From: Azolla caroliniana | Lineage: Eukaryota; Plantae; Polypodiophyta | Length of the DNA stretch: 64,000 nucleotides | Direction of reading: 5' to 3' | Assembly: GCA_043228905.1 (NCBI GenBank) | Contig: JBHGNT010000022.1 | Span: 12,152,001-12,216,000 of the forward strand | Shown: positions 1 through 57,500 of the stretch, in pieces | Numbering within the stretch: position 1 is the stretch's first letter | Layout: the number at the start of each line of letters is the position of its first letter | Position numbers and translations under genes: made by a program | Notes under the pieces: generated by a model | Seen by the model: only the letters and a program-made list of their open reading frames with translations | Database searches by the model: none | What the model was told of the DNA's origin: nothing

Positions 1-3000
1 GCCGATTTTCAACATTGTCATCATCACCTAAAAAGATAAAGAATGTTTCAGTTGATAAAAAGTAATCTCCCAACATACAAAAGAAAAACCCTCTCAGATT
101 TTAACCCAAAAGAAAAACTCGACGAATGTCATCTTGTCATGAATGCCATAAGGCTTTCAATGCATTTTTGCAACTTGACAAGGCTGGAGATGTTTTACCT
201 GTCAGGAAAAAATTACATTAACTGAAGCTATGTGTATACTTCACATGCCTCTTAAGTTTTCTTTTTTCCCTAATGTCCTTTGGTCAACCATATGTATTAT
301 TTGAGCAAGTATTGGGGTAAGTAAGATGCAACCATATGTATTATTTAAGAAATTATCCGTTTTTCTCTCCTGAAGGGCGTCTGCGAAATAATAAAAACTC
401 AAGGTCATTTGCGGAAATAAAGCAAAACTTATGTACTTGGGGAGTTTTCTCTGATAAGAATCAAGAATCCAAGTCAGGATAATGTCCAAATCTACAATAA
501 AAGCATTCTCCCTCTCGCCACAATGCTTTTGGTAATAGATCCCTGATCCCAAACCTAATCTGGAGTTAATGCTGCATCAACATAAGTAAGCAACATTGAA
601 AATGAACACCTTACCTTCATCCATGGGTTCAAACCGTATGTGTCCTGGTCTTACAACAATCGGAAGTCTTTCTTCTTCAGCCTCACCATCATCCTCAGTT
701 TTACTCCTTAGCACAGGCAAAACTTGGTTGCTTGTATCATTTGTAACATCAGGTTTCTCCATCTGAGGAACAGCTGAAATAACATTATTATATGCATGAC
801 AGAAACACTTCCCAGAGGAAAAAAATAGTAATGATTACATTACCCTATCTAACATTTGTTTGTTCTCTCGTTTCCAAAAACGTTTCGCCTTCTTCCTTCG
901 GGAACTACGACTGGGTTTCTGGTAAACCATATACACAATGATTATGAGAAATTCAAGTATTACAACAGTTTCAATAAAGATTCAGAAAACATACTTTTAC
1001 ACTTTCCGTTTCTATTGGCAGATCTAGCCTCTTCTGTTCATCCTTCGACGTTTCACTAGTTGAACTGAAAAAGGCTTTTAATAAACTGAATGAACTTTAT
1101 AAAAGCCGTGCACTTTACATACTTGTATATCACAAAAGAACACAGTAACTAGGTTAAGTATCTGTGTATGTTTAAAGAAACACTCATAGGAGTAGATTAT
1201 GATCAAATACAAAACTCTGGTGCTCAAACATTGCTCATTGTCGCATTGTATTCTGTCCAAAAGGCAGGCACTATACACATAAACTTTGTGTAGCTTATTA
1301 TGAATGAAAACAGAATAGGTTTTTTACTGAAATAGTTCTGAAGACGCATGAAGAAAATGTTATTGGTATAGAAATGATCCCTCAGAGCTTGTTCAAAACT
1401 TGTTTCTCACCTTCAGTATATACACATACATACATACATACACACACACATATATATATATCAAATTTGTTGAGTACATACTCCAAAGGTAAAAAAATTA
1501 TATGCAAAGATGTACAATTTTTTGCATCTGCTTCATTTAGTTAATTTCAATATCACAATGGTTCAGGACATAGAACGAGAATAACTTATTATGAATTGCA
1601 AATCTTGTGATACCTTGAAGAGGACGAATCATGTTTCTCATCCTTCTTTGTAGCAGCACACTCCTTGTCAATACTCTCTGTTGCATCATTATTCACTTTT
1701 ACCTTGGCCTCACTGGACAACTTATTTTTCTCCTTCATTTGTACCTTTGGAACATTAATTTCGTTAAGGCTCTTTTCCACAGTACTCTTCAGAACCTCAT
1801 TTTTGTCATTATGTTGAGTGATCTTTTTCTTTCTCTTCGATTTTCCAACTTCATTTGCAGCATTCTCTTTTGTAGCTTCAAGCTTCAAGCTTCTCCCTTG
1901 CTCATCATCTCTAAAATGTGACATTATTATGGCTTCAGATATAAAAAGTCTTAATAAAACTATCAATAATAAACTAAAGTGCATAAAGGTACGAATGCTA
2001 TTTGAGATAATTGTCTCTTAGGGGAATGTAGATGATGCACATGAATGAGAATTCCTGCAATGGCTGTACAAAGTTCCTATAAGTGTCAAGTATGACCAAA
2101 TATCTTGATTCTCTTCTCATTTTACTTCCGAATACTGCAGAGAAAGGTCTAACCCAACCAAGCTGATTAAATAAAGCACCAGATTTAATTGCAACACCAC
2201 ACTCTTCATAAGCAAACACATCCTGTTTGGGACTCTGGTATGTCTAGCAATAATTCTACAATATCATCATGTTGAACTTTCGAGGACTATTAAGGTTACA
2301 TTTTTCCAGCTATGATTTAATATTGAGATGATAGAATCAGAATTATGCAATGTTGTAGAGCACAAATCCTCATTGTTTTCCATTAAAAATCTTACAAATC
2401 CGAACCAGTGCAGAAATTATCTACCACAATACCAACAGTTTTTTAGGAGAACTATGAGGAGCATATCCTGCAGTTCTCCTCCTCAAAAAAAAAACTCCGA
2501 AAATGATGCATTTCTCCACTGTTTTCTGGGACATTCAAGTACACCTTATACTGACTCAAACATCAATATTCAATCTATCAACAAGCACTTCAAGATGGTT
2601 TAGGGAAGAGAAACAACTACAGATTAATGAAGATGCCAAAGATTCAATTAAGAGGATTGAACAAGGGATTTAAGATCCTCTAGATGCATGATTCAAATAA
2701 CTATTTCTATAGATAACCACAACTTGGTTATTTGGGGAATGTAATGCAAAAAAATGGCCATACATGCAATACTGCAACAAAGCTCTCGACAAAGTCAAGT
2801 TACCTTGATTAGTAGGAGAATATAACACAAAAGCAAATTATTGCACTAGCAATACTGCAAAAAAATACATCACCAAGTCACACTAGATGGCAGAAGTGTA
2901 AGGCTCAAGTTTCTCTCCTTGCTCTTAGCTACACCTATCCACTTTCCCTCGCTCTTGCTCAATCATTGATAGTTTCTCTATTCCTATACTTGAAATAATC

Positions 3001-20865: not shown

Positions 20866-21007
20866 TCCATAAACAATATTTGGTTTTGAGTCATGTTTGT
20901 AGAATGTATATTTGTGTTCCTAGACCTATTTGCCCTTATTTATTCTCGTGTGAATTGAGGTCTCTTGCCGAAGAAGACATCAAAATCTCCACCGACGAGG
21001 AACGAAT

Positions 21008-21079
21008 CTCCTCGGATAGGACTTAAACCTACAACCAATTAGTTACCAACCGACCGCTCTACCATTGAGCTATCGAGGA
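21008..21079 (-). pseudogene. trnN: Degenerate organelle-type tRNA-Asn (trnN-GUU) insertion
   Basis: Reverse complement TCCTCGATAGCTCAATGGTAGAGCGGTCGGTTGGTAACTAATTGGTTGTAGGTTTAAGTCCTATCCGAGGAG resembles plastid trnN-GUU as I recall it; anticodon and T-loop are mutated. Confidence 0.65.
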
Positions 21080-22299
21080 AAAGTAGGAAATTTTGCTTCA
21101 CAAACAACAAAAGACCCTTTTTATTTCTAGATTATCATTTTTGTTACTTATATACTACTTTATAACTAGCATGGCATCTACAATGTTTAGTTTTGTGTCA
21201 TATCTATTGATGCATGTTTGTGATCTCAAAACTTAGTGAGGTTTTTTTTGGAAAAAAAAAAAAAAAACTTAGTGAGGTTGTAGTCAATATGTTGGGAATA
21301 GGCTCCACTATTTTAATGTGCATACAAAACTCATGGAGTCCAATTCACATCTACGCTATTGAGAGTAGATGAGTAGAAGGAAGTGCGTTGCATGTTTGAA
21401 ATTCAACTCCAAGGTACACATTTCTTGTTAGTAATTGAATCATGACTATAATGATCATGCGGCACGTGTGTGAAGCCACAATTAGTGACACAATGAAAAA
21501 TTCAATCTTGTACTAATTTGGCATTGCCTTTACAGTCTAGCGAGAAATGAAACTTCAAATGAAAAGTGGTAAAATATTAGAGATTACGTTTGACATTAAA
21601 CTTTCAAGATTGTCAATGTTTACCATAGGGTTTTAAAATGGTAAATTGTAATGGTGTAAGTGCTATAAAATGATGTGCATGAGTTCAAATCCTACAATTG
21701 TCAATTGTCTAATCATTGTAAGGAAAAGAATGTACCCTGTTTTTTTGGAACAATTATTAGATAGAAGAATATGACCATCCTAGTGTATAGAGACAATGTT
21801 TTGTTTTGTTTTATAGGTATACGTGTTTGTGTTTCCCAAATATGTAGTGAGGTCATGAGCATGCTAGGGATAGGCTATATTATTGTACTTTGCATACAAA
21901 GGTCATTGAGAAGAAACAACTTTTGACTTACGAAGGAGAATTGATTAAAAAGAATATCTCATCATAAATTTGTGTTTAAAGTAGTCAAGAAGAAACCACT
22001 TTTGGCTAATCAACGAGAGTTGATAAAAAAAAACTCATTATAAATTTTGTTTAAGGTATAAATTTGAATGGCGAGTTATCATCATGTCGTCTTGAAGTTC
22101 ATGTTTAAGGACAAGCCGGCTAGCCAATTTAGTTCGTGTCCCACTCGACTAGAACAAATTCAGGTGAGCCAGTTCGTTGCACCCTCCTACTGTTTATGGT
22201 CACCTCCAGGCAGAATCCCCAATCACACAAATGTAGAATGACATCCACATTCGGCTCATCAGAGATGAGTCTCACAATGTTTGACAGATTGAACTTCAA

Positions 22300-23624: not shown

Positions 23625-24560
23625 GATGAGGTGGTCGAGTTGGTCTAAGGCACCAAATTACGGTTCTACTCTGAAAGGGTATGGGTTCAAATCCCAATCT
23701 CATCATCGATGTAAAATAAACATGTAACATTTCAACAACAAGTTGATAGGGTCTAGATTAAAATTCTCGTTCGAAAGGGCGCACGTTCAAATCCCATACT
23801 CAATGTAAAATGAACATGTAACTTTTAGGCAACGAGTTGACATGGTCTAGATTAAAGTTCTCGTCCGAAAGGAACTAAGCTGCATTGGTCTAAGCCGCTA
23901 GATTAAGGGCATGAGCTCAAATCCAATGTCATCATCAATGTAAAATGAACATGTAACATTTAGGCTATGGGCTGATATTGTAAACGGAAAATAGATGAGG
24001 TGGCCAAGTTTTTCTAAGGCGATATATTAAGAGCATGGGTTCAAATCCCACCATCATCATCGATGTAAAATGAACATGTATTGTTTAGGAAACGAGTTGA
24101 TATAAAAAGGGAAGTGGATGAGGTGGCCGAGATGGATTAAGGGCATGTGTTCAAATCTCACCATCATCATCGATGTAAAATGAACATGTAACGTTTAGGA
24201 AACGAGTTGATATAAAAAACAGAAGTGGATAAGGTGGCCGAGTTGGTCTAAGGCGCTAGTTTAAGGTTCTAGTCCGAAAGGGCATGGTTTCAAATCCCAC
24301 TCTCATCATCGACCTAAAATGAATATGTAAATTTAGGCAATGAGTTGACTATGTAACACGATAAGTGGATGAGGTGGCCAAGTTTGTCTAAAGCGCTCGA
24401 TTAAGTTTCTAGTCCGAAAGGGCGTGGGTTCAAACCCCACTCTCATCATCGATGTAAAATGAACATGTAACTTTTAGGCTACGAGCTGATATCGTAAATG
24501 GACATGGATGAGGTGGCCGAGTTTGTCTAAGGCGCTAGATTAAGGTGCTAGTTCAGAAAG
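23625..24560 (+). pseudogene. Left, degenerate block of the tRNA-Leu(AAG) array (~8 units)
   Basis: Units at ~23625, 23750, 23845, 23994, 24117, 24228, 24368 and 24507, with internal deletions and the shared spacer tcgatgtaaaatgaacatgtaac. Confidence 0.85.
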
Positions 24561-33920: not shown

Positions 33921-33988
33921 GGATGAGGTGGCCGAGTTGGTCTAAGGCGCTAGATTAAGGGCATGGGTTCAAATCCTACTCTCGTCAT
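33921..33988 (+). pseudogene. Isolated tRNA-Leu array unit with 3' anticodon stem and variable arm deleted
   Basis: gatgaggtggccgagttggtctaaggcgctagattaag|ggcatgggttcaaatcctactctcgtca. Confidence 0.85.
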
Positions 33989-34902: not shown

Positions 34903-37900
34903 GATGAGGTGGTCGAGTTGGTCTAAGGCGCTAGATTAAGGTTCTAGTCCGAGAGGGCGTGGGTTCAAATCCCACCCTCATCATTGCTCGATGTAAAATG
35001 AGCATGTAACATTTTGGTGACGAGCAGATGTCCTAAACAAAAGTGGATGACGTGGCCGAGTTGGTCTAAGGTGCTAGATTAAGGTTCTAGAAGGAAAGGG
35101 CGTGGATTCAAATCCCACCCTCATCATCGATGCAAAATGAATTGGCCGAGAACTGATATTTATATAGAAGTGGATGAGGTGGCCGAGTTGGTCTAAGGCG
35201 CTAGATTAAGGTTCTAGTCCGAAAGGGCGTGGGTTCAAATCCCACCCTCATCATTGCTCGATGTAAAATGAGCAGCATGTAACGTTTTGGTAACAAGCAC
35301 ATATTCGAAAAAGAAGTGGATGAGGTGGCCGAGTTGGTCTAAGGCGCTAGATTAAGGTTCTAGTCCGAAAGGGCGTGGGTTCAAATCCCACCCTCATCAT
35401 TGCTCGATGTAAAATGAGCATGTAACATTTTGGTGACGAGAATATGTCCTAAACAAAAGTGGATGACATGGCCGAGTTGGTCGAAGGCGCTAGATTAATG
35501 TTATAGTAGGAAAGGGCGTGGATTCAAATCCCACCCTCATCATCGATGTAAAATGAATTGGCCGAGAATTGATATTCTAAATAGAAGTGGATGAGGTGGC
35601 CGAGTTGTTCTAAGGCGCTAGATTAAGGTTCTAGTCCGAAAGGGCGTAAGTTCAAATCCCACCCTCATCATTGCTCGATGTAAAATGAGCAGCATGTAAC
35701 GTTTTGGTGACGAGCACATATTCTAAAAAGAAGTGGATGAGGTGGTCGAGTTGGTCTAAGGCGCTAGATTAAGGTTCTAGTCCGAAAGGGCGTGGGTTCA
35801 AATCCCACCCTCTTCATTGCTCGATGTAAAATGAGCATGTAACGTTTAGGTGACGAGCAGATGTCCTAAACAAAAGTGGATGACATGGCCGAGTTGGTTT
35901 AAGGCGCTAGATTAAGGTTCTAGTAGGAAAGGGCGTGGGTTCAAATCCCACCCTCATCATCGATGTAAAATGGATTGGCCGAGAACTGATATTCTAAATA
36001 GAAGTGGATGAGGTGGCCGAGTTGGTCTAAGGCGCTAGATTAAGGTTCTAGTCCGAAAGGGCGTGGGTTCAAATCCCACCCTCATCATTGCTCGATGTAA
36101 AATTAGCAGCATGTAACGTTTTGGTGACGAGCACATATTCTAAAAAGAAGTGGATGAGGTGGCCGAGTTGGTCTAAGGCGCTAGATTAAGGTTCTAGTCC
36201 GAAAGGGCGTGGGTTCAAATCCCACCCTCATCATTGCTCGATGTAAAATGAGCAGCATGTAACGTTTTGGTGACGAGCACATATTCTAAAAAGAAGTGGA
36301 TGAGGTGGCCGAGTTGGTCTAAGGCGCTAGATTAAGGTTCTAGTCCGAAAGGGCGTGGGTTCAAATCCCACCATCATCATTGCTCGATGTAAAATGAGCA
36401 GGTAACATTTAGGTGACGAGCAGATGTCCTAAACAAAAGTGGATGACGTGGCCGAGTTGGTCTAAGGCGCTAGATTAAGGTTCTAGTAGGAAAGGGCGTG
36501 GGTTCAAATCCCACCCTCATCATCGATGTAAAATGGATTGGCCGAGAACTGATATTCTAAATAGAAGTGGATGAGGTGGCCGAGTTGGTCTAAGGCGCTA
36601 GATTAAGGTTCTAGTCCGAAAGGGCGTGGGTTCAAATCCCACCCTCATCATTGCTCGATGTAAAATGAGCAGCATGTAACGTTTTGGTGACGAGCAGATA
36701 TTCTAAATAGAAGTGGATGAGGTGGCCGAGTTGGTCTAAGGCACTAAATTAAGGTTCTAGTTCGAAAGGGCGTGGGTTCAAATCCCACCCTCTTCATTGC
36801 TCGATGTAAAATGAGCATGTAACGTTTAGGTGACGAGCAGATGTCCTAAACAAAAGTGGATGACGTGGCCGAGTTGGTCTAAGGTGCTAGATTAAGGTTC
36901 TAGTAGGAAAGGGCGTGGGTTCAAATCCCACCCTCATCATCGATGCAAAATGAATTGGCCGAGAACTGATAATCTAAATAGAGGATGAGGTGGCCGAGTT
37001 GGTCTAAGGCGCTAGATTAAGGTTCTAGTCCGAAAGGGCGTGGGTTCAAATCCCACCCTCATCATTGCTCGATATAAAATAAGCAGCATGTAACGTTTTG
37101 GTGACGAGCACATATTCTAATAAGAGGCACATATTCTAGTCCGAAAGGGCGTGGGTTCAAATCCCACCCTCATCATTGCTCGATATAAAATAAGCAGCAT
37201 GTAACGTTTAGGTGACGAGCACATATTCTGATAATCTAAATAGAGGTTGAGGTGGCCGAGTGGTCTAAGGCGCTAGATTAAGGTTCTAGTCCGAAAGGGC
37301 GTGGGTTCAAATCCCACCCTCATCATTGCTCGATGTAAAATGAGCGTGTAACGTTTAGGTGACGAGCAGATGTCCTAAACAAAAGTGGATGACGTGGCCG
37401 AGTTGGTCTAAGGCGCTAGATTAAGGTTCTAGTCCGAAAGGGCTTGGGTTCAAATCCCACCCTCATCATTGCTCGATGTAAAATGAGCAACATGTAACGT
37501 TTTGGTGACGAGCACATATTCTAAAAAGAAGTGGATGAGGTGGCCGAGTTGGTCTAAGGCGCTAGATTAAGGTTCTAGTCTGAAAGGGCGTTGGTTCAAA
37601 TCCCACCCTCTTCATTGCTCGATGTAAAATGAGCATGTAACGTTTAGGTGACGAGCAGATGTCCTAAACAAAAGTGGATGACATGGCCGAGTTGGTTTAA
37701 GGCGCTAGATTAAGATTCTAGTAGGAAAGGGCGGGATTTGAATCCCACCCTCATCATCGATGTAAAATGAATTGGCCGAGAACTAAGATTCTAAATAGAA
37801 GAGGATGAGGTGGCCGAGTTGGTCTAAGGCGCTAGATTAAGGTTCTAGTCCGAAAGGGCGTGGGTTCAAATCCCACCCTCATCATTGCTCGATGTAAAAT

Positions 37901-38444
37901 GAGCATGTAACGTTTAGGTGACGAGCAGATGTCCTAAACAAAAGTGGATGACATGGTTGAGTTGGTCTAAGGCGCTAGATTAAGGTTCTAGTCCGAAAGG
38001 GCGTGGGTTCAAATCCCACCCTCATCATTGCTCGATGTAAAATGAGCATGTAACGTTTAGGTGACGAGCAGATGTCCTAAACAAAAGTGGATGACATGGT
38101 TGAGTTGGTCTAAGGCGCTAGATTAAGGTTCTAGTCCGAAAGGGCGTGGGTTCAAATCCCACCCTCATCATCGATGTAAAATGAATTGGCCGAGAACTGA
38201 TAATCTAAGTAGAAGTGGATGAGGTGGCCGAGTTGGTCTAAGGTGCTAGATTAAGGTTCTAGTCCGAAAGGGCGTGGCTTCAAATCCCACCCTCATCATT
38301 GCTCGATGTAAAATTAGCAGCATGTAACGTTTTGGTGTCGAGTAAATATTCTAAAAAGAAGTGGATGAGGTGGCCGAGTTGGTCTAAGACGCTAGATTAA
38401 GGTTCTAGTCCGAAAGGGCGTGGGTTCAAATCCCACCCTCATCA
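34903..38444 (+). tRNA. Core tandem array of tRNA-Leu(AAG): 25 full-length units plus 1 half unit
   Basis: 81-nt consensus GATGAGGTGGCCGAGTTGGTCTAAGGCGCTAGATTAAGGTTCTAGTCCGAAAGGGCGTGGGTTCAAATCCCACCCTCATCA: acceptor GATGAGG/CCTCATC, anticodon stem CTAGA/TCTAG with loop TT-AAG-GT, variable arm CC-GAAA-GG, discriminator A. Consensus-identical copies start at 35173, 35319, 36007, 36153, 36570, 36984 and 37804. Confidence 0.95.
35173..35253 (+). tRNA. tRNA-Leu(AAG), representative intact copy
   Basis: Complete cloverleaf with A box TGGCCGAGTTGG and B box GGTTCAAATCC. Confidence 0.95.
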
Positions 38445-38501: not shown

Positions 38502-41500
38502 AAGATCTGGTGTCGGTATGGATGTCCGATAGAGTTAATAAGTGACCAAGGTGGGCACTTTTTAGGTCAAGTAGTGGAAAGTTTGACGACATTCTATGCG
38601 GTGGTGCACAAACGGAGCACTCCCTATTATACGCAAGCCAACGGATTAGCCGAGTCAACAAATAAAACACTACAGAACATCCTTCGAAAAATCGTCAATG
38701 AGAACCAGACGGATTGGGATACAAAGCTACACAGTGCACTCTGGGCCTATCGAACGGCATATAAGACAAGTATCCGCACAACACCGTTTCTCCTAGCATT
38801 CGGATTGGAATCAGTGATGTCGGTCGAGTTCCAGGTACTGAGTTTACGAATACAGATTCGGGAACGCCTAAATGAGAAGGAATCGGAAGCGATCCGGTTA
38901 GCCGCACTGTGCGAATTGGAAGAACACGGCTAGCCAGCATCATGCACCTAGAACTTGAGCAGCAGCGAAGGAAAGCGTTCGTGGACCGTCATCGAAAAGG
39001 GAACGAAAAGATGTTTGGAATCGGTAAGCCGGTACTAGTATTCTAGACCTGGATGGGTAAGATGTCGGGGAAGCTACGGTTTCGGTGGACCGAACCATAC
39101 TGGATTACGCGTGAGTTCAACGGTTCCTACCAGTTAGGGACACTTGCCAGCGAGGTTCTAGGTAAATGGGTCAATGAGTTCTGACTCAAACCATACAATG
39201 GACCCATGCCAAGAAACCCATTTGAACAAGTAAAGACCGACACAGAACCGGACACCAGTAAGTCGGAAGAGACGGCAACACATTTAGCAATCGGCAAGCG
39301 CGAAGTCGGTAAGAGGGAGCACGAGCCGGCAAACAACAAGAACGACGCGACGACAAGCAATCCAGCGGCCAACAAGTCCCACAATCTGGATAGGGTTCCA
39401 GTGGGACTAGATGCGAATTAACCAAACCATTTTTATTAAAAAATATATAATAAAAAATAAAAAATCAAATCAAATCAAAGTAAATCATGCAAAGGTGAGG
39501 GGTGAACGGACACATGCAAGAACAAGGAGTGAACATGCACTTTGAAAAGGTACGTAGTGGGCTATTAATAGGATATTAAACCGCCGCCACATGGCACGTC
39601 ATTCTATTTTAGTACACGACGTGCACACACGTGAGTAAGAAAAAAGGCGTCAACATGCAGCAAGAAAACTCCCACCGCGTGGAAGCCTTCACATTTCACG
39701 AACAAACGAGCACAGGCGATTGAAGATCATTAGACGTGAGCCCACGCACACAGAGCCTCCTCAAACACACCCCTCACCAGCGCTCACCGACCTCGATGAA
39801 GCCATGGACTGCCAAGCACTCTCTGAAGCGGCCAAGAAGTGGCCAAGGCAACACGGGTTAGAAGGTTTCCTCACAATCATGGAGGCTCCACCGCACCAGG
39901 AGGCGGAGAAGATAGTAAAGGAGATCGACACGGAACTTATCACGGAGGCCATCCATGCTTTGATTGGCCTTCCGGAGGGGGGCATCTTCACTATCGACAA
40001 CCCTACCCCATAGCAGCTTCGAAAATATTTTGGGGAATACTCTCTGGCCAGCAAGGCTTACCAGACACAGGGCGGCGAAGATCCCCTATTTCGAGAGATT
40101 GCCCATGTACTCCATGAATTTGGACATGTATACCCTCGACCCCCGTGCATGCCTTAGAACCAAGCCGGCTTAATCATAGCAACATATGAAGGCGTGAAGG
40201 TGGACTGGCCAGTACTAATTGCAGATGGCCTCTGTGTGGCCATCGACTCTGTAAGAGGCAAGGAGGGTTGGAAGATATGGACGGCACTGGCGCAATGGCT
40301 CACCCTATTGGCGCCACCTATCGAGCCCGTCAAGACCACAAAGTGGGGAAGAACAACCGAAGGCACCCCGAAAATGGCCTTGAAACGACAACAGTTGTTG
40401 GCCTCTAAGGCAACCAAACGGAAGGCGGCCGACACGGACCAGGCGGCAAAGGAGTGCGCCAATAGGAAGCGGTAGGTGGAAACGCAGGAGGAGCCACCGG
40501 CACGGCCAATCAAGATCAGACTTCACCAACCGGTTCAACAAGAGCCGGACCCCTTGGCAGCAAAAATCAACATCGGGACTCAGGAGAAGGAAGTGGAGGA
40601 GGAACCGTTAGAGCACCTCCAGCAGCGCCAGAAGGCAAGCACCTCCGAACAGGCCGGGGAGCGTTCGGACCCAAAGAAGGATGGAACGCCTCTACCCCGC
40701 ACTGAGCATCCCGCACCAAGGGTGGAATCGGAACCAGTTCGGACAGAACCGGTCACAGAGCTCCCTGCACAACAAGCTATACCGGCAGGTCAAGTTACGG
40801 CAAGACCCGAAATGCAAGCGCCGGAAGTACAGTGGCCTACCCCACCGGCAAGTCAAGAGCAATCAGAGGCAGAGCGGCCAACGGAGCCACAACCAGAACC
40901 AAAACGGCAAAGTGGTCACCAACCAGAGACAAAGTTGCATCTCAACGCAACCGGACAAAGCCGACCACTAGCCAGCGACACCAAAAGCCAACCCTCCGAG
41001 CAGACGCAACAACAGGACACCGGCAACCAATGGCTCCGGTGGATTGGAGAATAAATTGCCGGAGTAGTGCAGTACATAGAGGCGGAAGAGAAAGCGCAGA
41101 TGGACCGGTTGCTCGTCACAACCGGAGAACTAGAGACGGCCCGGTCAAGGATCCGGAGCCTAAAACAAGACTTGGACCTGGCCACAGAAGAATTGGCCAA
41201 AATGGCCTTAACCGGACCACCGATCCAAGCACCGGTGACTCCGGTAGATGTACAGAATAAAGACACACCGACACCTGTACATAACAATAAGACCCCGGAG
41301 ACGGAACCAATCCCGGAGATAGTGGCGGCGCAAGCAAAAGAGCTTGTTGAATTGAAAGATGAACTGGCCGCACAAGAAGCATTACGCACCCGAGAAAGGG
41401 ACTTGAAGAAAGCGGCAGAAGAAGAACAAAGGAAGACTGTTGAGAACCTCCGCCGGGCAGAAGACAATTTGCGGAAAGGACATCAAGCATATGACCGGCT

Positions 41501-43151
41501 TAAGGAGGAGAAAGAGAAAGCGCTGCAAGAAATGGAGAAGCTGTTACGGATGGCGGAAACGGAGATTGAAAGACTTAAAGAAGAACTCTGTCAATAGAAG
41601 GATCGGGAAGACTGCGCTCGCCGGCAACTCAACCAGAAGTTGAAGCAAAAGACCGATGATTTTGAGCACCTGCACCGGGACTACAAGCACTTGGATACGG
41701 AGCATAAGAAATAGCAAGAGAAGATGGCAGAGCTCCGGTAGGAGGTGCATCGAGCGGAGATGGCGCTAGCGGAGGAACAGGTTGAAAGAACCACGCTACT
41801 GGAGGAAGCCGCGCAAGAACGTATAGAGCTCCATAACCAGCATTATGAAGAGAAGGAAAGAGCGACAATGGTATTGCGGAGGTTGCAAAACACCTACCAA
41901 CACCAATTGTCACATTACCGGGAGCGGGAGGCGGACACGTTGGCGCTGATCAAGCAATTGAAGGAAGAACAGCAAGCCACGGAGGACAAATCGAAGATGG
42001 GATTGGAGCGGATCCAGTTCATTGTCCAAGCATGGAGGAACAAGACAAAACGCTTGATTGACGAAAGCTCCGTGCAATGGTGGGACAAATGGGCAAAACA
42101 AACAGCCGAGCTCCAGTTGCTAAGGGCGGACGCGAAAAACCGGCAGAAGGATGACGACGACGGTTACATGCTAACAAAGGAGGACTTCACCGCCGTAAGA
42201 GATGAGTTAGCCGAAGATTTTGTAACTCTAGCGAAGGAACAATCAGCAGTGGTCCGGCAACTGGTAGCACAGCTGGACGATGATCGATTGGATGCTCAAA
42301 TCCAGTTTGAAAGCTATGAGCGGACCAGGCTACGGAAAGAAGACGCAAAGCATGCGGCGACCGTCAACCTCAGCGATGAGGAGCCATCGCCGGAGCAAGG
42401 ACTGGATGGAGACAAGGCCAGGTCGAGTCAACCGGAGTCAAATCCAACAGAGCAGCTAACGGAGGAATCATCGCCACAACCGCCAGTACCGAGAGCCGAA
42501 CAGACGCCATCTAAGGAGCAACAATCGGAGGAGCTGGAGCCACAACAACAACAGCAACATCAGCAACATCAGCCGCAACAACAACAACAACAGAGTTCCG
42601 AAGAACCATTGGATACCCTGGAGCAGAGTATTCTGGATATCTTGGACGAAGGCTAAGGGCCGGATAGTGGGATTCGACATACAAGGTACTGTCCCACAAG
42701 CGTGCAATGTGTTACCCGGCCGGCAAAGGAGTTAAAGATCAGAATGTGAAAGGGATTGTTATTCGGAATCTATTTTACTTAAGTAGAATAGTGGGACATG
42801 AACGGACGGACCGGAATCGGTATGCCGATCCGGATCCGGACCGGTTCTGAACGGGTGCCGGTTGGCACCGTTTTGTACTCAGCACCGGTGACCTATATAA
42901 AGGCCCAGTTACAATGTAAAACTTTGATGGATAATTAATAGAGCTTCTTGTTTTATCCTTAAGTGTTGATTACCGTTTTGTACTAATTGTTCTATCATAC
43001 GTGTGTATCGAATTTAATGCCATATTGCTAAGTAGCCAATTAAGTCTGATTAATCGTTGTGTCTTAAGTTATCTCGCCGTAACACCCCTTTGGTGAAGTG
43101 TCTTCCGTAGACACCCTGTGTTAGGCCATTGTCCGGCCCTAAGGATTAACA
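38502..43151 (+). mobile_element. Ty3/Gypsy 3' half: integrase, extra ORF and 3' LTR
   Basis: RYGCPIELISDQGGHF, QANGLAESTN, ALWAYRT integrase; extra ORF 39804-42656; LTR ~42757-43151 (TGTTA...TTAACA) after gaaagggat; an alternative LTR start at 42710 is possible. Confidence 0.88.
39804..42656 (+). pseudogene. Gypsy accessory ORF (~950 codons; P/Q/E-rich linker, long coiled coil) with in-frame stops
   Basis: ORF-track pieces 39720, 40194, 40476, 41067 and 41745 share one frame, separated only by TAG/TAA codons. Confidence 0.8.
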
Positions 43152-45007
43152 AAGGGCGTGGATTCAAATCCCACCCTCATCATCGATGTAAAATGAATTG
43201 GCCGAGAATTGATACTCTAAATAAAAGTGGATGAGGTGGTCGAGTTGGTCTAAGGCGCTAGATTAAGGTTCTAGTCCGAAAGGGCGTGGGTTCAAATCCC
43301 ACCCTCATCATTGCTCGATGTAAAATGAGCATGTAACGTTTTGGTGACGAGCAGATGTCATAAATAGAAGTGGAGAGACGTGGCCGAGTTGGTCTAAGGC
43401 GCTAGATTAAGGTTCTAGTCCGAAAGGGCGTGGGTTCAAATCCCACCCTCATCATTGCTCGATGTAAAATGTGCATGTAACGTTTTGGTGACGAGCAGAT
43501 GTCCTAAACAGAAGTGGATGAGGTGGCCGAGTTGGTCTAAGGCGCTAGATTAAGGTTCTAGTCCGAAAGGGCGTGGGTTCAAATCCCACCCTCATCATTG
43601 CTCGATGTAAAATGAGCATGTAACGTTTAGGTGACGAGCAGATGTCCTAAACAAAAGTGGATGACATGGTTGAGTTGGTCTAAGGCGCTAGATTAAGGTT
43701 CTAGTCCGAAAGGGCGTGGGTTCAAATCCCACCCTCATCATCGATGTAAAATGAATTGGCTGAGAACTGATAATCTAAGTAGAAGTGGATGACATGGTTG
43801 AGTTGGTCTAAGGCGCTAGATTAAGGTTCTAGTCCGAAAGGGCGTGGGTTCAAATCCCACCCTCATCATCGATGTAAAATGAATTGGCCGAGAACTGATA
43901 ATCTAAGTAGAAGTGGATGAGGTGGCCGAGTTGGTCTAAGGCGCTAGATTAAGGTTCTAGTCCGAAAGGGCGTGGGTTCAAATCCCACCCTCATCATCGA
44001 TGTAAAATGAACGTGTAATGTAAAACAGAAGAGGATGAGGTGGCCGAGTTGGTCTAAGGCGCTAGATTAACTTTCTAGTGCGAAAGGGCGTTGGTTCAAA
44101 TCCCATCCTCATCATGGATGTAAAATGAATGTATAACGTTTTTGCAACAACTGATGACCTAAGTGGAAGTGGATGAGGTTGATGAGTTGGTCTAAGGCAA
44201 TAGATTAAGGTTCTAGTCTGAAAGGGCGTGGGGTCAAATCCCACTCCTATCATCGATGTAAAAGTAACATGTAATGTTTTGGCAACGAGTTGATGTCCTA
44301 AGCAAAAGTGAATGAGGTGATCGAGTTGGTCTAAGGCGCTAGATTAACTTTCTAGTGCGAAAGGGCGTTGGTTCAAATCCCATCCTCATCATGGATGTAA
44401 AATGAATGTATAACGTTTTTGCAACAACTGATGACCTAAGTGGAAGTGGATGAGGTTGATGAGTTGGTCTAAGGCAATAGATTAAGGTTCTAGTCTGAAA
44501 GGGCGTGGGGTCAAATCCCACTCCTATCATCGATGTAAAAGTAACATGTAATGTTTTGGCAACGAGTTGATGTCCTAAGCAAAAGTGAATGAGGTGATCG
44601 AGTTGGTCTAAGGCCGGTAGATTAAGGTTCTCGTCCGAAAGGGCGTGGGTTGAAATCCCACTCCTATCATTGATGTATGATATCCTAAATGGAAGTGGAT
44701 GAGGTGGCCGAGATGCTCTAAGGAGGTAGATTAAGGTTCTCATCCGAAAGGGCGTGGGTTCAAATCCCACTCTCATCATAGATGTAAAAATAATATGTAA
44801 CGTTTTGGCAATGAGACAAGTCCCTCCGGATGGGACGTGTTCGACAGTCGGATCCGGAAAGTATTCGAAAACTTGATCGAGCCATAGTGGATTAGAGGCA
44901 CAGATATTTTTAAATGTATGGAAGTGGATGAGGTGGCCGAGTTTGTCAAAGGCGCAAGATTAAGGTTCTAGTCCGAAAGGGCGTGGGTTCAAATACCACT
45001 CTCATGA
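43152..45007 (+). tRNA. Right block of the tRNA-Leu(AAG) array (13 units plus a 3' half), degenerating rightwards
   Basis: Units start at 43230, 43373, 43517, 43660, 43788, 43916, 44034, 44172, 44311, 44449, 44588, 44698 and 44927; 43517 and 43916 are consensus-identical. Confidence 0.92.
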
Positions 45008-47659: not shown

Positions 47660-47677
47660 TATCCTCTTAATCTACCA

Positions 47678-48210
47678 AATGCCACTACGGAATGTCAGGG
47701 TTGAAACCATGACCTTTGGGTCCCCATTGGGCAAGGAAAACATTAGTATCTTTGCTTCTTGCTTTTTGGGTGCTTGAAAAGAGCGGGGAAAGCAGAAAAG
47801 CGAGCTTTTTCTTTCATCAATCTTGGAAAACTGCACCTCCTCTTAATATACTTAGATGCCATTGCGGGATGTGGGGGGGTTGAACCCATGACCTTCGAGT
47901 CTCCATTGGGCAAGGAAAGCATTAGTCTCTTTGCGTTTTGCTTTTTGGGTGCTTGAAAAGAGCGGGGGGGAAAGCAGAGAAGCAAGCTTTTTCTTTTCGT
48001 CAATCATTGGAAAAGTGTTACCTCCTCTTTTAATCTACTTAGATGCCACTGCGGGAAGTAGGATTTGAGCCCATGACCTTCGAGTCTCCGGTTGGGCAAG
48101 GAAAAGCATCGGTCTCTTTGCGTTTTGCTTTTTGCTTTTTGGGAGCCTGGAAAAAGCAGGGAAAGCAAGCTTTTTGCTTTTCTTCAATCTTGGAAAAGTG
48201 TACCTCCTCT
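47678..48210. repeat. Three ~180-bp tandem repeats with a tRNA-like B box on the - strand
   Basis: atgcca(c/t)t.cgg.a...tga..ccatgacctt..gtc.cc..ttgggcaaggaaa at ~47679, ~47856 and ~48043. Confidence 0.85.
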
Positions 48211-48217
48211 TCTGCTG

Positions 48218-48367: not shown

Positions 48368-49986
48368 ATGGGCAGTGTTCCTACGCCAGAAGAAGAAGAA
48401 GACGAAACAGCATCAGCAGGAAAATCCCATCCCCCCCTTCCTTCCTCCTCCTCCTCCTCCTCTTCTTCTTCTTCTTCTTCTGCTGCTGCTGCTGCTGCTG
48501 CTCCACAGCGATGGCAGAACGATTCACAGAACAGCTCTCGCTTCCATAATGACTTCCGCATTCCTCACCATCCCCCTCGTTCTCCCCACCACTACGAGTG
48601 GCGAGTAAGGGAAACAGTCATCAATGGAACAACATGGTATCCTCAACCCCCTCGATCTGGCCCTAACCCTAGGTATGCAAAACAAAACAATACAAACACA
48701 CAAAAAAAAAGGACCTCTGTATTGCTTTCTTTTCTCTGTTTTTTCTGTCTTTGTTTGTTAAATATGGCCTTTCATGGTGTCTAGTCTTAAGACCACTTCT
48801 TAGCAGACATTACAGGCATCCTCATGATGGTTCCTATCAGCAACATCCACATAGAACCATGCATTATCATGATAAGAATCATGATGATGATGATGTTGTT
48901 GAGGATGATGATCATGATTTGGCACATGATGGGTCTTACTTCATGCATCATCATGGACGGCAACATCAATATGATGGGGTCTATGGTCATATGCATCCTT
49001 ATCAACATCAGCAGCATGATGGGACTTATGCCATGATGCCCTACCATGATGGAGGTATGTATGGTAGTAGTCATGCTGTTACTTATGATGATGGATCGGC
49101 ACATGCCCCACCATGGTACTATTCTTATGATCATAATGCTTCGATGTTGAGGAGGCCGTACAATAATGCCGTGATGCCACATGGCGGTTACAATGTGGGG
49201 CCACGCGGCTATGGTGACTCGAGGTCACATGGTAGTTATGATGATGGCAGGTCTTCTTATATTCGCATTAGCCCACGTGGTGGCGAGAATGCAAGGTCAA
49301 GATCAAGGTCCTCGCATGGTGGGCAATATGTTGAGCACGAGAATCCTTACCATAGCTATAATGAGATGAATGGGTGCCCGATGGGGGGCCCACCTTTGTA
49401 TGGAATGCCGAGCACCGGGAACACGAGCCGGCACGTGGTCACGTGGTGCGGACACACGATGCCTGTCACCATCACCAGCCAGGCGGCTGCGGTGATCGAA
49501 TGGGTTCACCGCCAGACGGGTGGCCTCTTCGGCTTCGACCTCGAATGGAAACCAAATTTCTCTCCCGGCCAAGACAACAAAGCTGCCCTTCTACAGCTTT
49601 GTGGACCCGAAGACTGCTTGATCGTCCAGCTGCTCTACGCAGACATGATACCCCGTGCCTTGGTGGATTTCCTATTGGACGCGGGCAAGTCTCTTGGAGG
49701 CGTCGGGATCAGGCAAGATGTGAGTAAACTGGAGCGTGATCACGGGCTCGCGTGTCAGGGCCAAGTCGAGCTCGGGGCACTGGCTTCGGAGAAGCTCGAA
49801 AGGCAAGACCTACATGGAGGTGGGCTGAAGAAACTGGTAGACCAAGTGCTGGGGAAGACACTGGTGAAGGTGAAGAAGATTACCATGAGCAACTGGGAGA
49901 AAGAGTATCTTGATCAGAAGCAAATCGAGTATGCTTGTATCGATGCCTGGGCAGCCTTGGCACTCTTGCAAAAATTGATGGGTTAG
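48368..49986 (+). CDS. Werner-syndrome-like (WEX/RNase D family) DEDDy 3'-5' exonuclease with long low-complexity N-terminus; 2 exons
   Basis: Exon 48368-48672 (ag|gtatg) joins exon 48807-49986 (or 48816) in phase 2; motifs GFDLEW (ExoI), ALLQLC, IRQDVSKL (ExoII), SNW...YACIDAW (ExoIII). Confidence 0.88.
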
Positions 49987-54145: not shown

Positions 54146-54570
54146 AAGAGAGAGAGAGAGAAGAGAGAGAGAGAAGAGAAGAGAAGAGAAGAGAAGAGAG
54201 AGAGACTTGATATGAAGAAGAAGGAAGAAGAAGAAGAAGAAGAATTAGAAGAAGAAAGAAAGAAGAAGAAGAAGGAGAAGGAGAAGGAGAAGAAAGACAG
54301 TGTTGATTGAGTAAGGTTCGAATTTCCCGCTACCCGCGAAACCCTATCTCTCTCTCTCTCTCTCTGTTTTAGGTTTCCTGCAAAAACCCTAATCACAGTA
54401 TCCTGCTACAGTGGCAAGCGCTCTGTTTCTCTGTTTTTTCTATATTTTTTTCCTTTTGTTTCCTCCCATTTTGTTTCTCTCATTCTCTCTCTCTCTCTCT
54501 GTTTTGGGTTTCCTGCAAAACCCCTAATCTCAGTATCCTGCTAGAGTGGGAAATTCTCTGTTTTTCCTTT
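54090..54570 (+). promoter_or_regulatory. TOP1 promoter/5' UTR: (GA)n tract, telo-boxes and a duplicated ~90-bp block
   Basis: (AG)n 54090-54205; AAACCCTA at ~54339 and ~54385; ctctgtttt.ggtttcctgcaaaa.ccctaatc.cagtatcctgcta.agtgg occurs twice. Confidence 0.55.
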
Positions 54571-54588
54571 TTGTTGCTGCCTTTGGCT

Positions 54589-57500
54589 ATGCCTGACGAC
54601 TCAGACGATGACTTGCTGCTGGATTTCCACCTCAAGCGAAGCAGGGCCGCAATGGCATCCTCTGGGAGAAGAGGGAAGGAAGGTTTGCTGAAGAAGGATT
54701 CATCACACCGAGCTTCTTCTCGGGTAATGCCGAAGAATCGCAAAGGAAATGAAGATGGAGCTGAAGATAATGATGATGACGAAGAAGAAGTAGATGATGA
54801 TGATGCTGATGATAAGCCTCTGTCAGTTTCTTTTCTATCAAAGAGATCCAGTAAAAAAGCAGCAGAGAGATTATCAGGTAAGTGCCTTGTTAAGTCCAAC
54901 AATCAAGACTCTACTACTACTGTAACAACAGTTGAGCAAAGGAGAGTCACATTGAAAGTATACAATAAAGAGGTAAATTCAGGTAATTGTCAAAAAAATG
55001 GCTCAACAAATAGTGCAAGATATGGTGTTGTTGATGATGATATGCCTCTGATACACATGCCAAAAAATACCAAAAAGAAAAACCAATCTTGTCACGTATC
55101 AGGTGGCTCCAGAAGTGGTATAGTTGTTGTTGATGATGATGATGATATGCCTCTCATGCATATGTCAAATAATATAAAAAAGAGGAAACAATCTTCTGAG
55201 GTTTCTTCTACGAAACACATCAAAGTGCATGTCAATTCGCTGAATATGAGCACAGAGGAGAAGAGACAAGCAAGAATAGCTGTGTTCTCAAAAGAAGAAC
55301 ATGAGGAAGAAGAGGAACCCAAAATACATGTAGAACCATCAAGGTCCTCTATAGAGAGGAATGCAGTGCCAATAAGAGAAGCCAATTCAGAAGATGAGCA
55401 GCACGAAGAGGAAGAGAAAGAGTCTAAAGTTCATGCCAACTCATCAAATGCGGATATAGAGTCTAATGGAGTATCATTAGTTGCAGCTGATTCAGAAGTT
55501 GATGAAGAGGAAGAAACTGAAAAGAAAGACTCTAAAATGTGTGTTAACTCATCAAATGAAGCTATAGAGAGACAGAGAGTAGCAATAGTAGTTGCTGACT
55601 CAGAGAACAAACAAGAAGAGAACGAAGTGAAAGAGAAGGAGGACAAGGATGCAATGGCTGATTTGCAAGAAATTGAGAAAGGAAAAATTGAGGTTGCAAC
55701 ATCAGAGGAGGAGGAAGAGGATGGGGAGGAGGAATCACACGAGGAGGAAGAGATAGAGTTAGGGAAGGAGCAGGAAGAGGTAGAGTTAGGGAAGGAGCAG
55801 GAAGAAGAAGACATCGACAAAAAACTCGGAGGAAAGTTAAAAAGAGAGCTTGCTGCAATCAGCAATGCTAACAACAATGAATCGGATGAGGATGAATATA
55901 ACATACCACTCAGACAAGGGCATGTCAATGGTAAGAAGAAGAATCGTGGAAACATTTTAATTGTCGATGATCACAGATCCATGGAGACCGCTAGTTTACA
56001 GAACCTTAAGGTTTCCTTTGCACAATCAATCAAATTGGTTGACGAGGAAGAAGAAGATGACAACGATGATATTCCTTTGGCAAAGATGTTATGCATTAAG
56101 TCCAAAAAGAGTGTTTCTACCAAACAGAAGGTATCAGTGGCTGTGAATGTTGTCAAGGAAGAGAATGTTGTAGATGATAATGACGATTATGACATTCCTT
56201 TGAGCCGACAGTTTGCCTTTAAGAGGAAGAAACATACCGGTGATGGTGCTATTCAAAAGCTCAAACAAGCAGGCATAAAGAAGGAGAAGCATGATGATGA
56301 TGATGATGATGATGATATTCCTTTGGGTAAAATGCTATGCTTAAACAAAGGTAAGGCTGCAGTTTCAAAAGCTAGTGCGACTTTTTTTGTTCCTCCAAAG
56401 TCAGAGACAAAAACAGTTACAGATAATATCGATGAGGATGACAGTGAGGATTATAATCAGCCCATAGTCAAGAAGACCTTTTTGAAGAAGAAAACATCTA
56501 CTACAAAAAGGCTTGTTTCTGAGAGAATGGTGCCTGATTCTAAGAAAAAGAAGCTAAAAACTCCATCAAAAAGGAGAGATTCAGATTCAGATGAAGAAGA
56601 TTCTGGCAATGATAACGATTTACTTCTGGTACAAACAATTTCTTCAGAGAAGAAAAATTATGTGGACAGGAAAGCAAAGTTTAATGCTGAAAAAAGGAAA
56701 CCAAAGACTCCATTGAAGGATGAGGATTCCGATGATGAGGATGATGAATGGGAGGAAGATGAAGGAGACGATGATGAAGATGAGGATTATGATGCATCAG
56801 TTGTAAAGAAGAGTCACATAGTGTCCAAGTCCAAGACCAATACTAAGAAAGATGCTAAATTGCGCTTGAAGAAAAAGGCAAAGAAGATGAAAGATATTAT
56901 GGAATCAGGTGGAGGACAGAAGTGGACTACTCTTGAGCATAATGGTGTCATATTCCCTCCTCCTTATCAACCACATGGTGTCAAGATGCTATACAATGGG
57001 AAACCTGTGGATCTTACTTCAGAACAAGAGGAGGTGGTAGTTAAATTGTGTTATAGGATTTAATTTTTGTTTGTTTTGGTGTTTCTTTAATGTTCCTCTC
57101 TTGTTTACATGCTTAACTTTGTAAGTATCTTCTGTTGATTTAATGTTTTAGTGTTTTGGATGTAGGTTGCAACAATGTTTGCAGTAATGCACGATACTGA
57201 TTATGCAGCAAAGGCTAAATTTGTGGAGAACTTTTGGAACGATTGGAAAAACATATTGGGTGAGGATCATGTGATTCAAGGGTTGGAAGGCTGTGATTTC
57301 ACTCCCATATATAATTGGCATATTGGTGAAAAAGAAAAAAAGAAACAAATGACTACTGAGGTATACTCACTTTTACTCATTAATGTTGGTTGATGCCTAA
57401 AAATATATTTATACAGAACCTTTCACGCTCTGTTGGGAATATAATAGGAGAAGAAAGCAGCCAAAGAAGAGAAGATGAAACAGGAAGAAAACTATATGTG

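What the first reader, a model, noticed from the sequence alone, without database searches (positions are those of the whole stretch)
35254..36983. Pol III terminators in only some spacers: possible polycistronic pre-tRNAs
Seen: the spacer after A units has cgTTTTgg (T4) about 30-35 nt downstream, most A' spacers have only gTTTagg (T3), and the spacer after B units has no T run at all. Known: Pol III needs about four or more T's. Inference: transcripts from A' or B would read through as A'-B-A multimers needing RNase P/Z cleavage and would release defined ~47-62 nt spacer RNAs, a natural polycistronic tRNA-spacer cassette.
Basis: partly seen in the sequence, partly recalled or inferred. Interest (0 to 1): 0.75.

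Follow-up and report, generated by a model that had tools for sequence, protein, structure and literature searches.

The report
Decaying tandem leucine-tRNA gene array
In this plant's tandem array of leucine tRNA genes only some copies still carry the four-T stop signal, most likely because the repeat is mutating away rather than because it was built to make multi-tRNA transcripts, so the finding is largely ordinary.

Summary
The T-run pattern is real. In 35254-36983, 5 of 5 A spacers have T4, 3 of 4 A' spacers have T3, and 4 of 4 B spacers have no run above T2. The cassette reading is not supported. The block is the youngest of four tRNA-Leu(AAG) tandem arrays in this genome (549 BLAST hits). 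T4 is the ancestral state, shared by three diverged spacer families. B lost it by an 11-nt deletion and A' by one substitution also seen in a decayed block. All 9 units before a B spacer have a damaged tRNA. Changes within arrays look near-neutral (20 of 30 variants damaging, 63% expected) and are biased to CG sites, as in methylated repeats. The spacers match no Rfam family, fold no better than shuffles and match nothing outside the arrays. In favour of function: tRNA consensus is 80-81 of 81 identical between arrays, so founders were probably real genes, and 11 of 31 young copies are intact. If transcribed, read-through of 2-6 units would follow as a by-product. Expression could not be tested. 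Three look-ups of earlier scan notes showed no report of this array type.

The parts
34903..38444 (+). Young tandem tRNA-Leu(AAG) array, left part: 25 near-full units plus one half unit (37134-37175), spacers 44-65 nt in an A / A' / B higher-order pattern
35173..35253 (+). Intact A-type tRNA-Leu(AAG) gene (reference unit); differs from the 8 dispersed Leu(AAG) genes at 6 sites forming 3 compensated stem pairs
   Evidence: Rfam 60.3 bits
35254..35318 (+). A spacer (65 nt), T4 at 35285-35288; same type at 35671-35735, 36088-36152, 36234-36298, 36651-36715
35400..35461 (+). A' spacer (62 nt) that keeps T4 at 35428-35431
35817..35878 (+). A' spacer (62 nt) with T3 at 35845-35847 (one T-to-A change); same at 36380-36441 and 36797-36858
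35879..35959 (+). B-type unit: acceptor pairs 6 and 7 and two variable-arm pairs broken; other B units in range at 35462, 36442, 36859 are also damaged
   Evidence: fold z -1.3 against -3.3 for an A unit
35960..36006 (+). B spacer (47 nt): an 11-nt deletion removed the 5' half of the T4; same type at 35543-35589, 36523-36569, 36940-36983
   Evidence: alignment A1
38505..43150 (+). LTR-retrotransposon-like fragment that splits the array; the array resumes at tRNA position 50
   Evidence: the two ORFs scanned here had no Pfam hit, so the label is read from the sequence
43151..45007 (+). Right part of the array: 6 young full units, then 7 older, more damaged units
23625..24560 (+). Older, decayed block of the same repeat; already carries the T3 spacer variant
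33922..33987 (+). Internally deleted unit left between Copia-type elements

Best explanation
This is a tandem array of tRNA-Leu(AAG) genes in which the ancestral T4 stop signal was lost from some repeat units by one substitution (A') and one 11-nt deletion (B), likely as part of unselected decay in a probably methylated, silenced repeat. Steps: (1, inferred) a working single-gene unit, tRNA plus T4 about 25-35 nt downstream, seeded several arrays; (2, inferred from the mosaic of unit types) unequal crossing-over multiplied units and spread whatever variants they carried, giving the A-A'-B pattern; (3, shown) copies then collected changes almost regardless of tRNA structure, fastest at CG sites, and LTR elements broke the arrays; (4, inferred from Arabidopsis clusters) most copies are kept off by DNA methylation, and the 8 dispersed genes supply the tRNA. 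Any read-through would be a side effect.
For: T4 is ancestral: present in 149 of 179 units of the C22 3.13-3.29 Mb array, 42 of 71 units of the C22 11.4-11.5 Mb array, and in both consensus spacers. Loss by deletion and by point change is visible in alignment A1, and T3 already occurs in the decayed 24-kb block. 9 of 9 units before a B spacer are damaged; intact units are 8 of 12 with T4 and 3 of 19 without (Fisher p 0.007, copies not independent). 20 of 30 distinct tRNA variants in the young array break a stem or an invariant base, against 154 of 243 (63%) possible changes. In the old array, tree-counted changes in the tRNA are 0.81 of the spacer rate, invariant bases change as often as other tRNA bases (5.0 vs 5.8-6.2 events per A/T site; 13.3 vs 12.4-13.5 per non-CG G/C site), CG sites change about 4 times faster than A/T, and 9 of 171 copies keep all stems. 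C>T/G>A exceeds T>C/A>G about fourfold. Copia gag and integrase flank the array. Upstream A+T is 0.50-0.67 in array units and 0.73-0.90 in the 8 dispersed genes, 6 of 8 of which have T>=4 within 40 nt. Other isotype arrays here also mostly lack a near terminator (Lys 0 of 39, Arg 1 of 12 and 1 of 12, Ile 3 of 7 within 50 nt). Clustered tRNA genes in Arabidopsis are methylated and silent despite normal cis-elements (PMC7544208, passages).
Against: tRNA consensus is 80-81 of 81 identical between arrays while spacers share only 41 of 89, 42 of 67 and 44 of 87 columns. The array isodecoder differs from the dispersed genes by three compensated pairs; two complete pairs from four random CG/CHG changes has chance 0.002. 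The one tRNA change fixed in this young array turns a G-U into G-C (G7-C in 23 of 33 units, 6 more carry the C with a later A7). So selection acted on founders, and exact-pattern hits for this isodecoder lie only in arrays (52 of 52; lower-bound search). 11 of 31 young units are intact. The tRNA still changes about 20% less than the spacer (p 0.005 for non-CG G/C sites in one array), and T4 had 0 events in 38 units of one array against 0.95 per other spacer T. The T4-intact link is weaker in other counts (p 0.07, 0.03, 0.59). Methylation and silencing are inferred from mutation spectrum only. The Arabidopsis SYY cluster is reactivated in root tips (PMC13437025 passage).
Confidence: 0.62

Rival explanations
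1. The array is transcribed in some cells. Pol III starting at A' or B runs through to the next T4, giving 2-6-unit precursors that RNase P and RNase Z cut where the tRNA folds; spacers are released and degraded. Read-through is real but incidental.
For: 11 of 31 young units intact; founder-level constraint; no canonical or scanned non-canonical signal in T3 and most B spacers; isolated T3 is nearly inactive for human Pol III (PMC3141230 passages); plant RNase P/Z cut engineered tRNA-gRNA arrays (PMC13370227 passage); the SYY cluster is reactivated in root tips.
Against: Near-neutral, CG-biased decay; weak upstream A+T context; B units have broken acceptor pairs, so cleavage around them would be uncertain.
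Confidence: 0.27
2. Pol III of this lineage stops at T3 or at TATTCT-like stretches, so every unit ends in its own spacer and nothing is polycistronic.
For: T3/T2 elements can terminate in some contexts (PMC3141230 passages); non-flowering land plants have the lowest share of tRNA genes with T>=4 (PMC13437025 passage); 2 of 8 dispersed genes have their first T4 only at +80 and +104.
Against: The A' T3 is isolated and 8 of 9 B spacers lack the scanned motifs; 5 of 8 dispersed genes have T>=5 within 40 nt.
Confidence: 0.07
3. One reading: a selected polycistronic cassette whose product includes defined 47-62-nt spacer RNAs.
For: Natural tRNA-leader dicistrons exist (tRNA-tRNA, tRNA-snoRNA, tRNA-5S, tRNA-RUF70; PMC2566860 passages); A and A' spacers begin with a 6-bp hairpin.
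Against: Spacers have no Rfam match at E<=5, fold z -1.1, -1.5 and +0.75, and the A' spacer matches only array places (29 of 29). Spacers diverge strongly between arrays. Terminator-less units are the damaged ones. In the Yarrowia dicistrons the gaps are 4-17 nt and the partner genes look intact.
Confidence: 0.04

Closest known systems
Plant tRNA gene homoclusters: Arabidopsis Pro, Cys and Ser-Tyr-Tyr clusters, maize Ile, barley Gln (PMC7544208, PMC13437025, PMC13578239; passages)
   Same: Same-strand tandem copies of one isotype, at least 5 genes in 5 kb, with a cluster-specific isodecoder beside dispersed genes, in a repeat-rich setting.
   Different: Far more copies (549 hits in four arrays), very tight spacing (128-146 bp), Leu(AAG) isotype, most copies damaged; Arabidopsis Pro clusters are reported to keep uniform poly(T) tracts, whereas here T4 is being lost.
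Expanded tRNA gene set of the fern Azolla filiculoides, about 7500 genes (PMC13578239 and PMC13437025; passages)
   Same: A non-flowering plant genome with large tRNA-gene expansions; here arrays of Leu, Lys, Arg and Ile were seen. The plastid chlB gene with in-frame stops fits a fern or hornwort (editing link recalled).
   Different: The species was not established. The review leaves open whether the expansion serves translation; the arrays tested here mostly decay.
Natural Pol III dicistrons: yeast tRNA-tRNA dimers, plant tRNA-snoRNA, Yarrowia tRNA-5S and tRNA-RUF70 (PMC2566860; passages). Chlamydomonas polycistronic pre-tRNAs are recalled only; the paper was not held.
   Same: A tRNA gene with no terminator before the next gene; processing would use RNase P and Z.
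   Different: Known cases are shown by RT-PCR or northern and have intact partners; here nothing is shown transcribed, gaps are 44-65 nt and the read-through units are mostly damaged.
Engineered polycistronic tRNA-gRNA arrays (PMC13370227; one passage)
   Same: Layout tRNA-spacer-tRNA that plant RNase P and Z can cut.
   Different: Those are driven by an outside promoter and carry a designed RNA; these spacers have no known cargo.

Membership tests
Plant tandem tRNA homocluster | At least 5 genes of one isotype within 5 kb | tested here: met
   24 ARAGORN calls in 34903-38444, 23 of them Leu(AAG)
Plant tandem tRNA homocluster | Cluster isodecoder distinct from dispersed genes | tested here: met
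   6 fixed differences from 8 identical dispersed genes
Plant tandem tRNA homocluster | DNA methylation and transcriptional silencing | not testable with these tools
   Only indirect: CG-biased C>T/G>A excess
tRNA-derived decaying tandem repeat | No purifying selection on tRNA structure among copies | tested here: met
   20 of 30 variants damaging vs 63% expected; invariant bases change like other tRNA bases in 153 units; a uniform 20% deficit against spacers remains
tRNA-derived decaying tandem repeat | No constraint on the tRNA between arrays | tested here: not met
   Consensus 80-81 of 81 identical while spacers diverge; three compensated pairs
Natural polycistronic Pol III tRNA unit | No terminator between neighbouring genes | tested here: met
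   19 of 31 young spacers lack T4; 18 of them also lack the scanned non-canonical motifs
Natural polycistronic Pol III tRNA unit | Junction-spanning precursor RNA exists | not testable with these tools
   No RNA holder listed
Natural polycistronic Pol III tRNA unit | All member tRNAs intact, so usable by RNase P and Z | tested here: not met
   16 of 19 units without T4 are damaged, 9 of 9 before B spacers; a single acceptor mismatch may still be cut, which was not tested
tRNA-ncRNA dicistron (tRNA-snoRNA, RUF70 type) | Downstream RNA is a conserved or structured RNA | tested here: not met
   No Rfam spacer match, fold no better than shuffles, spacers diverge between arrays

The most novel reading that the evidence does not exclude
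The array-only tRNA-Leu(AAG) isodecoder is a live, conditionally switched-on reserve, and this youngest array makes it from natural 2-6-unit Pol III precursors (243-800 nt) cut by RNase P and Z, releasing defined spacer RNAs: a land-plant counterpart of engineered tRNA-gRNA arrays.
Probability: 0.1. Interest if true: 0.65.

Novelty: new member of a known kind. Interest (0 to 1): 0.27.

Why it matters
As most likely read, it matters modestly. It shows that large tRNA-gene counts in such a genome can be decaying tandem repeats, which bears on the open question of whether the roughly 7500 tRNA genes reported for a fern serve translation (PMC13578239, passage). The array-specific isodecoder makes expression easy to test by sequence. 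If the bold reading held, it would be a natural multi-tRNA Pol III transcript in a land plant and a source of new small RNAs.

Tried and rejected
Expression: the look-up of sequencing runs listed no RNA holder. X1 is probably DNA of another organism. X2 and X3 (guessed RNA, same species label) laid nothing on the array; this blank is no evidence either way. X1 contigs covered the tRNA bodies but not the A, A' or B spacers at 80% likeness; uncovered parts are no evidence, so conservation of the terminator-less spacers in a relative stays open. snoRNA or other cargo in spacers: rejected. Guide-like targets elsewhere: none for the A' spacer (one spacer type tested, repeat words skipped). Weak Rfam RF04351 matches on the minus strand are the tRNA T-arm hairpin, far below cut-off. 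Errors of my own: one search started the mature tRNA one base late, and one search used wrong D- and anticodon-stem indices; stem counts come, while the T-run counts are unaffected. The RF00005 genome search scored only 63 of about 58,700 candidates and returned organellar and array genes, so it was not used as a terminator baseline; the 8 dispersed Leu(AAG) genes were. Cognat 2008 (Chlamydomonas) and one further paper sought for tRNA-gRNA arrays were not held. No supplements were read; species tables of PMC13437025 might already list such clusters.

Full report
Observation. The region is a head-to-tail array of 81-nt tRNA-Leu(AAG) genes on the + strand. In 35254-36983 there are 13 spacers: five of 65 nt with T4 at +32..35, four of 62 nt (three T3, one T4) and four of 44-47 nt with no run above TT. 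The array is larger than the finding: 34903-38444 and 43151-45007, split by an LTR-element-like fragment, with older remnants at 23625-24560 and 33922-33987. Copia gag and integrase domains lie on both sides.

Genome context. The window lies on C22 of a 523-Mb genome. A plastid-type chlB with in-frame stops points to a non-flowering plant, likely a fern or hornwort (the link to U-to-C editing is recalled). BLAST of one unit against the fetched regions gave 51 hits in and beside the window, 356 at C22 3.13-3.29 Mb, 118 at C22 11.41-11.48 Mb and 24 at C6 8.77 Mb; 398 of these 549 are near full length. Eight dispersed Leu(AAG) genes on C1, C4, C5 and C11 are identical to each other and differ from the array A unit at six sites that form three compensated pairs. 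Six of the eight have T>=4 within 40 nt, five have T>=5, and their upstream A+T is 0.73-0.90 against 0.50-0.67 for the 31 young array units. Arrays of other isotypes exist, and few of their genes have T>=4 within 50 nt: Lys(TTT) region 0 of 39 (27 of 33 short spacers have one further down), Arg(TCT) regions 1 of 12 and 1 of 12, Ile(TAT) 3 of 7 (relaxed ARAGORN threshold).

Direction of change. T4 is ancestral. It is in 149 of 179 and 42 of 71 units of the two sister arrays on C22 and 4 of 8 on C6, and at a homologous place in spacer families that otherwise share about half to two thirds of their columns. Alignment A1 shows the B spacer arose by an 11-nt deletion that cut into the T run, and the T3 form by one T-to-A change that is also present in the decayed 24-kb block (14 hand-picked spacers).

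Who lacks a terminator. Of 31 young units, 11 keep all 23 scored stem pairs and 15 invariant bases. Intact units are 8 of 12 with T4 and 3 of 19 without (Fisher p 0.007), and all 9 units before a B spacer are damaged, 8 scored with a mismatch at acceptor pair 6 and one with an indel. Copies share ancestry, so the p value overstates the case. An automatic extraction gave weaker links: window 7 of 16 vs 3 of 20 (p 0.07), 12 of 42 vs 2 of 29 (p 0.03), 6 of 149 vs 0 of 30 (p 0.59). A cassette that relies on RNase P and Z would need the read-through units to be good tRNAs; the trend is the reverse.

Selection within arrays. In the young array 20 of 30 distinct tRNA variants break a stem or an invariant base, against 63% of all possible changes (the two indel units were left out). 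For the old array I used 153 of 179 units (spacer 59-61 nt) and for the second 38 of 71 (85-87 nt). Mismatch to consensus was 0.105 in the tRNA and 0.133 in the spacer, transversions 0.058 and 0.054, CG sites 0.22-0.26; 9 of 171 full-length copies keep all stems. Tree-counted changes in the tRNA were 0.81-0.82 of the spacer rate after context correction, with invariant bases no better kept than other tRNA bases in the larger array (0.63 of expectation in the smaller one). T4 positions had 5.0 events per site against 7.4 for other spacer Ts in the first array, and 0 against 0.95 in the second. C>T/G>A outweighs T>C/A>G about fourfold. This is the pattern expected of a methylated repeat under little or no selection; methylation itself is inferred.

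Evidence for function. Between arrays the tRNA consensus is 80-81 of 81 identical while spacers diverge. Two complete compensated pairs from four random CG/CHG changes has chance 6 of 3060. The single change fixed in this array restores a Watson-Crick pair at 7-66. All 52 exact-pattern hits for this isodecoder lie in arrays (lower bound). Founders were therefore probably working genes, each with its own T4, and some intact young copies could be active. This supports live single genes, not designed read-through.

Spacer RNAs. No Rfam family matches a spacer at E<=5. Folding z-scores are -1.1, -1.5 and +0.75. All 29 genome matches of the A' spacer are array places.

If transcribed. Using T4 as the rule, the first 24 units would give runs of 1, 2, 1, 2, 3, 1, 3, 3, 2 and 6 units, 113-800 nt. 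Isolated T3 is almost inactive for human Pol III, though some T3/T2 contexts terminate (PMC3141230, passages); only one terminator-less spacer has such a motif. T4 is the generally accepted minimum in plants, and non-flowering land plants have the lowest share of tRNA genes with it (PMC13437025, passages). Plant RNase P and Z cut engineered tRNA-gRNA arrays (PMC13370227, one passage). So read-through and cutting are plausible consequences, conditional on transcription, which I could not test: no RNA holder was listed.

Comparison. It belongs with plant tandem tRNA homoclusters, which in Arabidopsis are methylated and silent despite normal cis-elements (PMC7544208, passages) and can be reactivated in root tips (PMC13437025 passage; PMC12308677, abstract start and passages, with no hit for 'polycistron' or 'read-through'). 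Natural Pol III dicistrons are known and were shown by RT-PCR (PMC2566860, passages). A fern with about 7500 tRNA genes is noted in two 2026 papers without an explanation being shown. Searches listed no title on Leu(AAG) tandem arrays or read-through in fern tRNA arrays; I saw listings only, and subscription papers are not held.

Verdict. Observation confirmed; cassette interpretation unsupported; a new, unusually large member of a known kind. Odds: by-product in a mostly silent array 0.62, incidental read-through 0.27, non-canonical termination 0.07, selected cassette 0.04. Interest 0.27.

Noticed in passing
window 42660-42710: Just before the LTR-like end of the element that splits the array lies a split copy of a tRNA-Arg(TCT) 3' arm instead of an obvious purine tract, as earlier scan notes describe for Gypsy elements of this genome; local alignment to L082.
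   Followed up: partly
G000:C22:3128471-3286219, C22:11405507-11484034, C6:8771945-8774767: Three sister tRNA-Leu(AAG) arrays (356, 118 and 24 hits) broken into blocks by multi-kb insertions; same tRNA consensus, different spacer families.
   Followed up: yes
G000:C5:17976001-18025000, C11:681001-707000, C4:19564292-19572000, C2:20107000-20112000: Tandem arrays of Lys(TTT), Arg(TCT) and Ile(TAT) genes; the Lys region has 37 distinct sequences among 39 genes, some with a changed anticodon.
   Followed up: partly
run X1 on window 35736-36152: Another organism (probably DNA) holds many tRNA-Leu(AAG) copies whose flanks resemble the C22 11.4-Mb spacer family; over half the depth reads G at tRNA position 44, the dispersed-gene state.
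   Followed up: no
window 35254-35274 and equivalents: A and A' spacers of the young array gained four bases at their start that complete a 6-bp hairpin right behind the tRNA, about 10 nt before the T run; older spacers and B lack it. Not significant against shuffles.
   Followed up: partly
window, A and A' spacers: The T run of each unit sits at -34..-31 of the next gene, where TFIIIB would bind (recalled), so terminator and upstream element may overlap; CAA near -8 precedes mostly the damaged B-type units.
   Followed up: no
window 47667-48211: 179-bp tandem repeat (3 copies) whose unit holds a T-arm-like motif on the minus strand, read by eye; not called by ARAGORN.
   Followed up: no
window 21007-21080: tRNA-Thr(GGT) on the minus strand; this anticodon is typical of plastids (recalled), so possibly an organellar insertion.
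   Followed up: no
window 48673-49986 and 54373-57063: ORFs with a 3'-5' exonuclease domain and the start of a DNA topoisomerase I DNA-binding domain: host genes lie within 4-10 kb of the array.
   Followed up: no
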